IMG/VR virus record: IMGVR_UViG_2663762841_000006
Location: 1 to 42,406 of that record
Length of the DNA: 42,406 nt
From: a virus
Taxonomy: Duplodnaviria; Heunggongvirae; Uroviricota; Caudoviricetes
Strand: one strand, 5' to 3'
The notes under the pieces were generated by a model. The model was given only the letters and a program-made list of their open reading frames with translations. It was not told the DNA's origin and did no database searches. The translations under genes were made by a program, and so were the position numbers. Positions 13,082 through 14,827 of this stretch are shown here, one piece after another. Position 1 is the stretch's first letter; the number at the start of each line of letters is the position of its first letter.

Positions 13082-13288
13082 ATGACAAATCAGCAGCAAA
13101 TAGAGTTCATCCTTGAGCAGATCAGAAAAATGCGAGAAAAGAACCAGCCAGACATGATGGAAATATGGAGACGCCAGCAGGAAGAATACCGCAAGCATAT
13201 TTTTGGTGAGAGAAAACAGGATGACTGGAGCCTATATGGCTATGGCACCAGGACAAATAAAAACGGATATAGCCTTTACACATATTGA
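13082..13288 (+). CDS. hypothetical protein, 69 aa
   Basis: AAGGAG RBS 5 nt before ATG 13082. Confidence 0.4.
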   Translation: MTNQQQIEFILEQIRKMREKNQPDMMEIWRRQQEEYRKHIFGERKQDDWSLYGYGTRTNKNGYSLYTY

Positions 13289-13296
13289 GGAATTCC

Positions 13297-13707
13297 ATGA
13301 AACAGACAATTTTCCTCAGGAGTAAGCAACAACAGCAAGCCGCAATCAACGCCATCCTCGCAACACCACTCGATAAAGACAAGCCAGTTACCATCCGCAT
13401 TACTGACTACAAGCGCAACCTTGACCAGAACGCAAAATTTCACGCGATGCTGGCGGATATCGCAAGTCAGGTTCAATGGTGCGGCAAATGGTTAAAACCA
13501 GAACAGTGGAAGGTTTTGTTGATTAGCGGTCATGCAGTGGCAACAAAACAGGAAGCTGATGTTTTGCGCGGCCTTGAAGGCGAATTCGTCAACATTCGCG
13601 AAAGCAGCGCGCAGATGAGTGTGAAGCGTATGGCAAGTCTGATCGAGTACACAACAGCCTGGGCTATTGGTCAGGGTGTCAGATTTACCGACAGGAGGTA
13701 CGAATGA
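13297..13707 (+). CDS. ninB: NinB (recombination protein, lambda NinB/Orf family)
   Basis: GAGGA RBS; RNLDQN and WCGKWL motifs match lambda NinB as recalled. Confidence 0.8.
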
Positions 13708-13880
13708 GACGACAGCGACGAAGTATCACCGACATAATCTGCGAAAACTGCAAATACCTTCCAACGAAGCGCTCCAGAAACAAACGCAAGCCAATCCCAA
13801 AAGAATCTGACGTAAAAACCTTCAATTATACGGCTCACCTGTGGGATATCCGGTGGCTAAGACATCGTGCGAGGAAATGA
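13704..13880 (+). CDS. ninD: NinD-like small protein, 58 aa
   Basis: Manual translation [32 protein letters not shown]...; AGGAGG RBS; ATGA overlap with ninB stop; identity to lambda NinD recalled but not verified. Confidence 0.45.
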
Positions 13881-13882
13881 CG

Positions 13883-14827
13883 ATGACTGCGTATTACAAC
13901 GAAATAGATCCGTATGCAGCGCAATGGCTGCGTAACTTAATTGACGCTGGAGAAATTGCCCCCGGTTATGTAGATGAAAGGAGTATTGAAGATGTCACAC
14001 CAGGTGATTTGCGAGGATTTACCCAGCACCACTTTTTTGCAGGAATCGGAGTTTGGAGCTATGCACTTAGAAAAGCAGGATGGCCAGACAACAAGAGTAT
14101 CTGGACAGGAAGTTGCCCATGCCAACCTTTCAGCTCGGCAGGCAAAGGAAAAGGGGTTGATGACGAGCGGCACTTATGGCCGGCATTCTTCTGGCTTATT
14201 GAAAAATGCAATCCTGGCATCGTTATTGGCGAACAGGTTGCAAGCGCAGACGGCCTCGCTTGGCTCGACCTTGTACAAACTGACTTGGAAGGTGCGAACT
14301 ACACCTCTGCAGGTACCGATATTTGCGCTGCGGGCTTCGGTTCTCCGCACATCAGGCAGCGATTGTATTGGGTGGCCTACTCCAACGACAAATATCAACT
14401 TTCAGCCAGAGACACGCAGGGGAATTCAGAACCTATCTGGATGCGTGAGACTAGCGGGATGGCAAACTCCTTTAGCGAACGATGCAACAGGTTCAACGCA
14501 TTGCTACAGCGGAAAAGACAAGAGCGGAACCCCAAGAATCTGCTTGAAACTTCCCGGGACGGTGAAGCTATGTACCCATTACCGGTTAACGGCTTCTGGA
14601 GAGATGCAGACTGGCTTTACTGTAGAGATGAAAAATATCGTCCAGTTAGACCCGGCTCATTCCCGATGGTTAATGGCATTGCCAAAAGCTTGGGACGAGG
14701 CAAGTCCACACTGGGAAGAATGGCAAAGCGCAATCAAGATCAGCGAATTATTGGATATGGAAACGCAATCAATGCAGAAGTAGCAACGGCATTCGTGAAA
14801 GTTTGTATGGAGGTTGTTAATGCTTAG
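13883..14827 (+). CDS. DNA (cytosine-5)-methyltransferase, orphan (no cognate nuclease gene seen)
   Basis: Motif I FFAGIG, motif IV PCQPFSSAG, motif VI-like GEQV, motif VIII QRLYWVAY, motif X GNAI; start chosen at second ATG for RBS spacing. Confidence 0.75.
   Translation: MTAYYNEIDPYAAQWLRNLIDAGEIAPGYVDERSIEDVTPGDLRGFTQHHFFAGIGVWSYALRKAGWPDNKSIWTGSCPCQPFSSAGKGKGVDDERHLWPAFFWLIEKCNPGIVIGEQVASADGLAWLDLVQTDLEGANYTSAGTDICAAGFGSPHIRQRLYWVAYSNDKYQLSARDTQGNSEPIWMRETSGMANSFSERCNRFNALLQRKRQERNPKNLLETSRDGEAMYPLPVNGFWRDADWLYCRDEKYRPVRPGSFPMVNGIAKSLGRGKSTLGRMAKRNQDQRIIGYGNAINAEVATAFVKVCMEVVNA

What the first reader, a model, noticed from the sequence alone, without database searches (positions are those of the whole stretch)
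13974..14783. 269-codon open reading frame in an alternate frame, embedded in the methyltransferase gene
A second frame stays open for 810 nt inside the methyltransferase coding sequence, which is improbable by chance at this GC content. Its translation contains repeated W-x-TP-type motifs (GWPTPTT, AGWQTPLAND). Frame 1 carries all catalytic motifs including the C-terminal GNAI, so this is not a simple frameshift of the enzyme. It could be an overlapping gene, a relic of recombination between two methyltransferase alleles, or coincidence.
Basis: seen in the sequence. Interest (0 to 1): 0.4.

Follow-up and report, generated by a model that had tools for sequence, protein, structure and literature searches.

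The report
Second gene nested inside phage methyltransferase
The long alternate-frame ORF inside this prophage DNA cytosine methyltransferase gene is a real, widely conserved second gene; it most likely encodes the enzyme's missing DNA-recognition subunit, an arrangement shown experimentally in only one enzyme (M.EcoHK31I) and usually left out of genome annotation.

Summary
A 269-codon ORF (13974-14783) lies in the +1 frame inside the C5 cytosine methyltransferase gene (13883-14827) of a lambdoid prophage nin region. It is not chance. The same +1 ORF is open in 78 of 80 homologous loci with 47-100% protein identity, and it matches 246 phage records from Enterobacteria to Rhodobacter, in the +1 frame in all 10 records checked. 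A profile of it finds 15,706 protein clusters. Selection alternates between the two frames along the DNA. Frame 0 (alpha) is constrained over the catalytic motifs, a short GFWRDADW segment and motif X. The +1 frame (beta) is constrained over the region between motifs VIII and X and over a motif-IX-like LNPAHSRWLMGLP..W. Synonymous codon choice in alpha's DERSIEDV motif preserves AAGGAG plus an ATG at 13992, so beta is probably 13992-14783 (263 aa). Alpha has no conserved or foldable target-recognition domain. The best explanation is a two-polypeptide methyltransferase like M.EcoHK31I, whose beta chain lies in another frame inside alpha. That beta is a real gene is well supported. That it is the recognition/motif-IX subunit is inferred: beta has no Pfam or PDB match, its AlphaFold model is poor, and no expression data were available.

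The parts
13883..14827 (+). alpha gene (frame 0): C5 DNA cytosine methyltransferase large subunit, 314 aa. In-frame ATG at 13877 and GTG at 13841 are alternative starts.
   Evidence: PF00145 at 4.7e-14 over residues 87-228. phrog_363 at 2e-92. RefSeq annotates the near-identical gene as DNA cytosine methyltransferase starting at the 13883 equivalent. AlphaFold residues 1-170 have pLDDT 80-95, and Foldseek's top hit is M.HhaI at E 5e-8.
13992..14783 (+). beta gene (+1 frame), 263 aa, fully nested in alpha.
   Evidence: ORF. tblastn finds 246 phage records, E down to 4e-79. 2784 database proteins of the same length class with no Pfam domain. 15,706 50%-identity clusters, nearly all starting at profile position 1. 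The exact 263-aa protein is in GenBank as a hypothetical protein.
13977..13983 (+). Shine-Dalgarno-like AAAGGAG for beta, 8 nt upstream of ATG 13992. It is encoded inside alpha codons Glu-Arg(AGG)-Ser(AGT).
   Evidence: Sequence. In 57 homologues the Arg codon is AGG in 33 and CGG in 18, although AGG is only 11% of Arg codons in these genes. Ser is AGY in 51 of 57.
13992..13994 (+). Probable beta start codon ATG, formed by alpha codons GAT-G (Asp37-Val38).
   Evidence: ATG is present in 56 of 59 aligned homologues. Alpha's Asp codon is GAT in 56 of 57 against 43.5% GAT overall. Some distant members (K1ind2) instead use the ATG equivalent to 13974.
13992..14107 (+). Beta N-terminal leader with no beta-specific constraint. 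It overlaps alpha's DERSIEDV motif (motif III-like) and motif I (FFAGIG, 14033-14050).
   Evidence: pN/pS is 0.18 for alpha and 1.76 for beta. Alpha position 3 is the most variable (0.36-0.47).
14108..14377 (+). Dual-constraint zone. Alpha carries motifs IV (PCQ, 14117-14125), VI (GEQV, 14228-14239) and VIII (PHIRQR, 14345-14362). Beta carries its conserved N-domain (LSARQAKE.GL.TSGTYG ... GSTLYKLTWK..TP ... LRASV.RTS).
   Evidence: Alpha synonymous difference falls from 0.645 to 0.385. pN/pS is 0.48 for alpha and 0.89 for beta. Alpha position-3 diversity drops to about 0.29.
14378..14590 (+). Beta repeat-module core: GWPTP at 14370-14384 and AGWQTPLANDATGSTHCYSGK from 14454. In alpha this stretch is a poorly conserved, length-variable linker.
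   Evidence: The most variable codon position is alpha position 1, which is beta position 3 (0.57-0.69). pN/pS is 0.65 for beta and 1.13 for alpha. Alpha pLDDT is 24-38 here. Under beta-synonymous recoding frame 0 stays open in only about 4% of trials per locus, yet it is open in all 40 loci tested. Beta relatives carry a variable number of W.TP modules, mostly 2-5.
14594..14647 (+). Alpha-specific conserved segment FWRDADWLYCRDEKYRPV.
   Evidence: pN/pS is 0.17 for alpha and 1.35 for beta. Invariant columns F238 to V255.
14643..14696 (+). Beta-specific conserved segment QLDPAHSRWLMALPKAWD, the candidate motif IX.
   Evidence: pN/pS is 0.33 for beta and 1.26 for alpha. Invariant L219, P221, H223, W226, L227, L230, P231, W234. 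Splicing this segment in front of alpha's motif X extends the PF00145 alignment to profile positions 64-322 of 324. Two of 6 mini-chimeras give weak PF00145 hits over positions 266/278-322, against 0 of 6 native alpha controls.
14756..14827 (+). Alpha motif X (YGNAINAEVATAF) and C-terminal helix. Beta terminates here at TAG 14781-14783.
   Evidence: Invariant Y292, G293, N294, A295, I296. AlphaFold helix 298-313 has pLDDT about 86. Sequence.

Best explanation
One stretch of DNA encodes two polypeptides in two frames, and together they most likely form one C5 DNA cytosine methyltransferase.

Alpha (13883-14827, frame 0) supplies the AdoMet-binding and catalytic large domain. It consists of motifs I and IV-VIII, then an unstructured linker, then a short conserved GFWRDADW..RPV element and the motif X helix.

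Beta (13992-14783, +1 frame) starts from its own Shine-Dalgarno sequence and ATG, both embedded in alpha's DERSIEDV codons. It supplies what alpha lacks: a conserved N-domain, an array of AGW(P/Q)TP repeat modules in the place where a target-recognition domain would sit, and a motif-IX-like LNPAHSRWLMGLP..W.

Shown here: beta is a conserved coding sequence under purifying selection, interleaved with alpha, and its start signals are preserved by synonymous codon choice.

Inferred: beta binds alpha, provides DNA recognition and motif IX, and is required for methylation, as the beta chain of M.EcoHK31I is.
For: (1) Conservation. The +1 ORF is open in 78 of 80 homologues, while the +2 frame never exceeds 96 codons. 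The match is in the +1 frame relative to the annotated methylase CDS in all 10 phage records checked, from Erwinia, Salmonella, K1ind2, Xanthomonas, Burkholderia BcepC6B, Rhodobacter RcPutin, two Klebsiella phages, a spring-water metagenome phage and the record named Dunaliella viridis virus SI2.

(2) Selection. The most variable codon position switches from alpha position 3 to beta position 3 at 14378-14590 and again at 14648-14693. pN/pS alternates along the DNA. Alpha is 0.18, 0.48, 1.13, 0.17 and 1.26. Beta is 1.76, 0.89, 0.65, 1.35 and 0.33. In the middle region beta is more conserved than alpha in every 10-residue block.

(3) Both frames are kept open. Under alpha-synonymous recoding P(+1 ORF >= 269 codons) is about 1e-3. 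Under beta-synonymous recoding the alpha linker stays open in about 4% of trials, yet it is open in all 40 loci tested.

(4) Start signals. AAGGAG plus ATG are maintained by non-random synonymous codons. Gene callers independently start the protein at that ATG in thousands of contigs.

(5) Alpha is incomplete. PF00145 covers only profile positions 64-211. Residues 171-294 have pLDDT 24-38. The large domain and the motif X helix are confident and match M.HhaI.

(6) Beta's C-terminal segment behaves weakly like motif IX in Pfam chimera tests.

(7) Precedent. [quoted passage not shown]

(8) PHROGs labels both beta families, phrog_1008 and phrog_31772, as DNA methyltransferase.
Against: There is no direct evidence of translation or activity.

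Beta has no Pfam, NCBIfam, PADLOC or PDB sequence match. Its AlphaFold model is poor, with mean pLDDT 46.

The motif IX assignment rests on pattern resemblance and on two hits of about 11 bits at E 0.2-0.3. hhalign against E. coli Dcm was uninformative.

Beta's first roughly 39 residues show no beta-specific constraint, so the true start could lie further downstream.

Natural single-ORF alphaN+betaC proteins exist (P0390, P0458). They may be frameshift mutants that merely look intact, so they are weak evidence of a functional link.

Nesting itself guarantees that alpha and beta co-occur, so co-occurrence cannot prove a shared function.
Confidence: 0.68

Rival explanations
1. Beta is a genuine nested protein-coding gene, but its function is unrelated to methylation. 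It could be, for example, an anti-defence, regulatory or DNA-binding protein overprinted on the methylase gene.
For: Beta resembles no known methyltransferase domain in sequence. Its WPTP repeat architecture is not a described target-recognition fold. Co-occurrence with alpha is forced by nesting. The PHROG label is not independent evidence.
Against: Alpha lacks a conserved or foldable recognition domain and lacks motif IX, so it needs a partner. Beta's selected segments sit exactly where the recognition domain and motif IX lie in canonical enzymes, and beta stops at motif X. There are weak PF00145 hits for beta C-terminus plus motif X. M.EcoHK31I is a precedent.
Confidence: 0.17
2. The two frames are joined by programmed ribosomal frameshifting into one canonical chain: catalytic domain, recognition domain, motif IX, motif X.
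For: Read across frames, the DNA preserves the canonical motif order. The spacing from beta's motif-IX-like segment to alpha's motif X is 19 codons in the window (14697-14755) and shorter in Erwinia phage 59. I recall similar spacing in canonical enzymes but did not test it. Chimeric single ORFs occur in nature.
Against: Selected segments alternate alpha, both, beta, alpha, beta, alpha, so one chain would need four shifts. Frame 0 is kept open through the whole linker. A dedicated Shine-Dalgarno sequence and ATG for beta are conserved by codon choice. I did not look for slippery sites.
Confidence: 0.05
3. The alternate ORF is a non-functional by-product of alpha's sequence or composition, or a relic of recombination between alleles, as in the reader's other options.
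For: Alpha's amino-acid sequence alone already gives fairly long +1 ORFs, about 105 codons on average under synonymous recoding. Two of 80 homologues carry a stop in beta (L034, L076).
Against: P is about 1e-3 in this gene alone. The ORF is open in 78 of 80 homologues. Beta is more conserved than alpha in the middle region, and beta position 3 is the most variable there. The family comprises 15,706 clusters. The arrangement is shared by distantly related phages, which rules out a recent recombination relic.
Confidence: 0.03

Closest known systems
M.EcoHK31I (E. coli type II C5 methyltransferase, YGGCCR), alpha/beta heterodimer
   Same: Two polypeptides are needed. Alpha carries motifs I-VIII and X. 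Beta carries motif IX and is encoded entirely inside the alpha gene in a different reading frame (PMC2836561; PMC3404938). The plasmid names M38 and C23, if they denote kDa (my guess), suggest subunit sizes close to alpha (314 aa) and beta (263 aa) here.
   Different: In M.EcoHK31I the target-recognition domain is assigned to alpha and only motif IX to beta. Here alpha's variable region is unconserved and unstructured, and the conserved recognition-domain-position sequence lies in beta. This enzyme is a prophage orphan methylase in a nin region, not part of a restriction-modification pair. Sequence homology to M.EcoHK31I could not be tested because its sequence is not in the held resources.
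M.AquI (CYCGRG), two-subunit C5 methyltransferase
   Same: A natural C5 methyltransferase assembled from two polypeptides split within the variable region (PMC3404938).
   Different: M.AquI's split is sequential: motifs I-VIII plus half the variable region in one subunit, the rest plus motifs IX-X in the other. It has no long nested dual coding, and motif X stays with motif IX.
Lambda Rz/Rz1 and other fully nested same-strand phage genes
   Same: One complete gene is embedded in another frame of a second gene, and the two products work together. Rz/Rz1 is cited as the textbook case in PMC9409062.
   Different: From my own knowledge, Rz1 is short (about 60 codons). Here about 790 nt, 84% of the host gene, is dual-coding, with selection alternating between frames.
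Multispecific Bacillus phage C5 methyltransferases (SPR, phi3T) with tandem recognition domains
   Same: A variable number of tandem modules lies between motif VIII and motif IX. This is a resemblance recalled from my own knowledge.
   Different: Those modules are in frame within a single chain and have defined specificities. The WPTP modules here are in a separate, nested polypeptide, and their role is untested. This is an analogy only.

Membership tests
C5 DNA cytosine methyltransferase (PF00145), alpha | Motif IV (PCQ) catalytic cysteine, motif VI (ENV-like) and motif VIII (QxRxR-like) on a Rossmann-type large domain | tested here: met
   PF00145 at 4.7e-14. The profile aligns to M.HhaI residues 74-171, including PCQ, GEQV and PHIRER. 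Foldseek's top hit is M.HhaI at E 5e-8.
C5 DNA cytosine methyltransferase (PF00145), alpha | Motif I (FxGxG) and motif X (GNAV/I) forming the AdoMet pocket | tested here: inconclusive
   FFAGIG and YGNAI are invariant, and the motif X helix is confident. The HMM alignment of motif I to HhaI is below significance, and the motif order appears permuted.
C5 DNA cytosine methyltransferase (PF00145), alpha | Target-recognition domain and motif IX in the same chain | tested here: not met
   PF00145 coverage stops at profile position 211 of 324. Residues 171-294 have pLDDT 24-38. The middle region is poorly conserved, with alpha pN/pS 1.13.
M.EcoHK31I-type two-polypeptide C5 methyltransferase | Beta ORF entirely inside the alpha gene in a different reading frame | tested here: met
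   13992/13974-14783 lies within 13883-14827 in the +1 frame. The arrangement is conserved in homologues.
M.EcoHK31I-type two-polypeptide C5 methyltransferase | Beta carries motif IX | tested here: inconclusive
   LNPAHSRWLMGLP..W is invariant and beta-selected. The PF00145 alignment extends to profile position 322 when it is spliced in. Only 2 of 6 mini-chimeras give hits of about 11 bits, against 0 of 6 controls. hhalign against Dcm was negative.
M.EcoHK31I-type two-polypeptide C5 methyltransferase | Both polypeptides required for methylation; alpha-beta association | not testable with these tools
   This needs expression and complementation or a complex prediction. Only monomer predictions were possible.
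M.EcoHK31I-type two-polypeptide C5 methyltransferase | Sequence homology to M.EcoHK31I alpha and beta | not tested
   The original paper and the supplement holding the sequences are not held.
Functional overlapping (nested) protein-coding gene | Purifying selection on the alternate frame beyond what the host frame imposes | tested here: met
   The most variable codon position switches, and pN/pS alternates between frames. Recoding nulls.
Functional overlapping (nested) protein-coding gene | Own translation-initiation signals | tested here: met
   AAAGGAG lies 8 nt upstream of ATG 13992. Both are maintained by biased synonymous codons in 51-56 of 57 homologues.
Functional overlapping (nested) protein-coding gene | Detected translation product | not testable with these tools
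   No ribosome-profiling or proteomic data were available.

The most novel reading that the evidence does not exclude
A very large family of phage and prophage C5 methyltransferases (more than 15,000 50%-identity clusters on the beta side) is obligatorily two-subunit. The DNA-recognition subunit would be written in the +1 frame across about 84% of the catalytic subunit's gene. It would be built from a variable array of AGWPTP repeat modules, so each repeat gain or loss must also keep the other frame open. If so, this would be among the longest and most widespread fully nested same-strand gene pairs in bacteria and phages, it is missed by RefSeq annotation in the locus checked, and M.EcoHK31I would be its only characterised member.
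Probability: 0.5. Interest if true: 0.72.

Novelty: new member of a known kind. Interest (0 to 1): 0.55.

Why it matters
If beta is the recognition subunit, enzymes of this family annotated as single-gene "DNA cytosine methyltransferase" are only half described. In the near-identical RefSeq E. coli locus checked, beta is not annotated at all. Cloning alpha alone would then give an inactive enzyme, and specificity predictions based on alpha would be meaningless.

The locus is also a clean natural system for studying how two proteins share one DNA sequence. Selection visibly hands over from one frame to the other five times within 800 nt. The repeat array in one frame forces an open, junk-like linker in the other.

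For annotation practice, single-base indels here produce intact-looking chimeric ORFs that RefSeq names as methyltransferases (P0390, P0458).

Tried and rejected
**Beta against family libraries.** Pfam, NCBIfam and PADLOC gave no hits.

**Beta profile against PDB sequences.** No hits at E <= 10.

**AlphaFold of beta alone.** Mean pLDDT 46, too poor for a fold search, so none was run.

**hhalign of the beta alignment against E. coli Dcm.** It gave only a 17-column match at probability 0.1%, aligned to the wrong motif.

**Search for an in-frame fusion of alpha's catalytic domain with beta.**
- All 10 phage hits I checked were in the +1 frame.
- A chimeric query did recover single-ORF alphaN+betaC proteins.
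- Their DNA shows a single indel that rotates all three frames. BetaN and alphaC-plus-motif-X persist as separate ORFs, and the junctions differ between Morganella and Pseudomonas.
- I therefore treat them as possible frameshift mutants and not as proof.

**Single-chain relatives.** From memory, actinophage methylases have TP repeats followed by an LNPxFxEWLMGFP motif and then GNGVVP. A tblastn with a betaC+X chimera found only this family, always in two pieces.

**M.EcoHK31I sequence.** The original paper (PMC306636) and the supplement of PMC2836561 are not held.

**"Mte8-like protein".** This is the K1ind3 annotation of the nested ORF. The literature search gave no explanation.

**Literature.** Searches for any description of this nested gene in phage methylases found nothing relevant.

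**Rejected readings.** Coincidence, recombination relic and frameshift fusion are rejected on the evidence given under the rival explanations.

Full report
**Context.** The window is a lambdoid prophage. Around the finding lie NinB (13285-13707), a NinE-family end, the methyltransferase, NinF (14814-), NinG (14989-), NinH, a Ser/Thr phosphatase and Q. The methyltransferase is rare cargo. Its first 45 nt, the ninE junction, occur in 1233 of 5426 complete E. coli genomes, but the whole gene occurs in only 10.

**Observation.** An ORF at 13974-14783 (269 aa) lies in the +1 frame of the 13883-14827 gene.
- Frame 0 hits PF00145 over residues 87-228 only, and the alternate frame hits no Pfam family.
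- I kept the frame-0 protein and resampled its synonymous codons. The longest +1 ORF then averages 104-110 codons and reaches 269 in 0.05-0.15% of trials.
- The +2 frame reaches only 54 codons.

**The alternate frame has homologues.** tblastn of the 269-aa translation against phage genomes gave 246 records. E-values went down to 4e-79, with 40-57% identity over more than 85% of the query, all under annotated cytosine methylase genes.
- In all 10 records I opened, the match is offset +1 from the annotated CDS. These are Erwinia phage 59, Salmonella 66FD, K1ind2, Xanthomonas PhiXhv-28, Burkholderia BcepC6B, Rhodobacter RcPutin, Klebsiella SAKp11 and Soft, a spring-water metagenome phage, and the record named Dunaliella viridis virus SI2.
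- K1ind2/K1ind3 and PhiXhv-28 annotate both frames. The K1ind3 authors called the nested ORF "putative Mte8-like protein".
- In 80 IMG/VR loci whose frame-0 protein is 47-100% identical to the window's, the +1 frame is open for 216-338 codons in 78. The +2 frame never exceeds 96 codons.
- The protein database holds 2784 relatives at E <= 1e-3. The best 120 are 239-342 aa with no Pfam domain.
- A profile search of 1.84 billion cluster representatives finds 15,706 clusters, 7,069 of them at E <= 1e-30. Nearly all top hits begin at profile position 1.
- The exact 263-aa product is in GenBank as a hypothetical protein of E. coli HVH 55. RefSeq does not annotate it in a 99.9% identical locus.
- PHROGs holds it as phrog_1008 and phrog_31772.

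**Selection.** I analysed 63 homologues with less than 90% protein identity to one another.
- The most variable codon position is alpha position 3 from 13883 to about 14100 (diversity 0.40-0.57).
- Alpha position-3 diversity drops to about 0.29 from 14108.
- At 14378-14600 the most variable position is alpha position 1, which is beta position 3 (0.57-0.69).
- It is alpha's again at 14603-14648, beta's at 14648-14693 (alpha position 3 only 0.13), and alpha's after 14738.

Nei-Gojobori proportions agree:

| Region | alpha pN/pS | beta pN/pS |
|---|---|---|
| 13992-14107 | 0.18 | 1.76 |
| 14108-14377 | 0.48 | 0.89 |
| 14378-14590 | 1.13 | 0.65 |
| 14591-14650 | 0.17 | 1.35 |
| 14651-14700 | 1.26 | 0.33 |

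- In 14108-14377 alpha's synonymous difference falls from 0.645 to 0.385.
- Given the beta protein, beta-synonymous recoding leaves alpha's linker open in only about 4% of trials per locus. It is open in all 40 loci tested.
- So both frames are kept open, and selection is interleaved between them. That fits two polypeptides and does not fit one frameshifted chain.

**Start of beta.** Alpha's invariant DERSIEDV is encoded GAx GAA AGG AGT ATT GAA GAT GTC. That sequence contains AAGGAG, 8 nt of spacer and ATG (13992).
- The Arg codon is AGG in 33 and CGG in 18 of 57 homologues, while AGG is 11% of Arg codons in these genes.
- Ser is AGY in 51 of 57.
- The second Asp is GAT in 56 of 57, against 43.5% overall.
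- Beta is therefore most likely 13992-14783 (263 aa).
- Some distant members lack this ATG and use the one equivalent to 13974.
- The first roughly 39 beta residues carry no beta-specific constraint.

**What the two products look like.**
- Alpha: residues 1-170 are modelled confidently (pLDDT 80-95) and match the M.HhaI large domain (Foldseek E 5e-8). Residues 171-294 have pLDDT 24-38. The motif X helix (298-313) is confident.
- Alpha therefore has no foldable or conserved recognition domain and no motif IX.
- Beta has a conserved N-domain (LSARQAKE.GL.TSGTYG ... GSTLYKLTWK..TP ... LRASV.RTS).
- It then has a variable number of AGW(P/Q)TP modules, mostly 2-5 in 146 representatives, with two in the window.
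- It ends in an invariant C-terminus, RLT..G..LTG....GGQLNP.HSRWLMG.P..WD, and stops exactly at alpha's motif X.
- This C-terminal pattern resembles motif IX of C5 methyltransferases (L-T/N-P-x-E-x-x-R-L-Q/M-G-F-P, from my own knowledge).
- The tests give only weak support:
  - A chimera of alpha 1-167, beta 90-239 and alpha motif X aligns to PF00145 positions 64-322 of 324, against 64-211 for native alpha.
  - Two of 6 mini-chimeras (beta C-terminus plus alpha motif X) give hits of about 11 bits over positions 266/278-322.
  - None of 6 native alpha C-termini gives a hit.
- Beta alone folds poorly in AlphaFold and has no PDB sequence match.

**Precedent and interpretation.** M.EcoHK31I is a characterised C5 methyltransferase that needs two chains. 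Alpha carries motifs I-VIII and X. Beta carries motif IX and is encoded entirely in another frame inside alpha. The present locus has the same logic. I conclude it most likely works the same way, with beta supplying motif IX and probably the recognition function. I could not test homology to M.EcoHK31I because its sequence is not held.

**Frame-rotated relatives.** A chimeric query recovered RefSeq "DNA cytosine methyltransferases" that are alphaN fused in frame to betaC and that end without motif X. Examples are Morganella P0390 and Pseudomonas P0458.
- P0458 residues 6-169 match alpha at 71% identity (E 6e-86). Residues 194-290 match beta at 39% (E 5e-18).
- Their DNA shows betaN still open in the +1 frame and alphaC plus motif X open in the +2 frame. 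This is what a single indel rotating all frames would produce. The junctions differ between the two loci.
- Because both frames are open by design, such indels automatically yield intact-looking ORFs. I treat these as possible pseudogenes.
- They are only weak evidence of a functional link, but they are a real annotation hazard.

**Verdict.**
- The ORF is a real, ancient, widely conserved nested gene (confidence about 0.95).
- It is the second subunit of an EcoHK31I-like two-polypeptide methyltransferase (confidence about 0.68).
- The architecture is a known kind. Its family-wide extent, the size of the overlap (about 790 nt, 84% of alpha), the interleaved selection and the repeat-module beta do not appear in the literature I could search.

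Noticed in passing
window 13883-14125 (alpha residues 1-81): Alpha's N-terminal motif order looks permuted compared with canonical C5 methyltransferases. AYYNEIDPYAAQWLRNL closely resembles M.HhaI motif II as I recall it (VYSNEWDKYAQEVYEMNF). DERSIEDV resembles motif III. Only then come motif I (FFAGIG) and, about 25 residues later, motif IV (PCQ). The AlphaFold strand order (E3-6, E28-31, E48-51, E73-76) is compatible with this. It would be a II-III-I-IV arrangement.
   Followed up: partly
L093 2501-3519 (Morganella prophage); L095 2501-3435 (Pseudomonas): In these relatives one indel rotates all three frames. AlphaN+betaC becomes one ORF, which RefSeq annotates as DNA cytosine methyltransferase although it has no motif X. 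BetaN remains open in the +1 frame and alphaC plus motif X in the +2 frame. The junctions differ between the two loci. They could be pseudogenes that look intact or a functional three-ORF variant.
   Followed up: partly
L003 3043-4026 (E. coli K56-43-un, 99.9% identical to window 13841-14826): RefSeq annotates only the methyltransferase here and not the nested 263-aa ORF. Some GenBank E. coli genomes annotate the identical protein as hypothetical (EQP02271.1). In L003 the methylase CDS also runs 13 codons further than in the window, because the last base of the 987-nt query differs, and so it overlaps ninF more.
   Followed up: partly
L034 and L076 (IMG/VR loci), beta frame: These are the only two of 80 homologues with a stop inside beta (longest +1 ORF 187 and 204 codons), while alpha stays open. 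They could be a decayed beta, a split beta or sequencing errors.
   Followed up: no
window 13841-13885 and flanks: The first 45 nt of the query (the ninE end and junction) are 96-100% identical in 1233 of 5426 complete E. coli genomes, and also in P22, H-19B and Stx phages. The whole methylase gene is in only 10 genomes. The alpha/beta cassette therefore behaves as a rare insert between ninE and ninF.
   Followed up: partly
P0359, P0244 and other beta relatives: Beta relatives range from 244 to 487 aa, mainly through gain or loss of AGWPTP modules of roughly 35-40 aa (0-7 W.TP matches by a strict pattern; correlation with length 0.54). Each added module also lengthens alpha's junk-like linker, which must stay free of stops.
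   Followed up: partly
L096 694-1491 (Escherichia phage K1ind3): The nested ORF was annotated in 2010 as "putative Mte8-like protein". The origin of the name Mte8 could not be traced in the held literature. It may point to an earlier database entry for a beta-type protein.
   Followed up: partly
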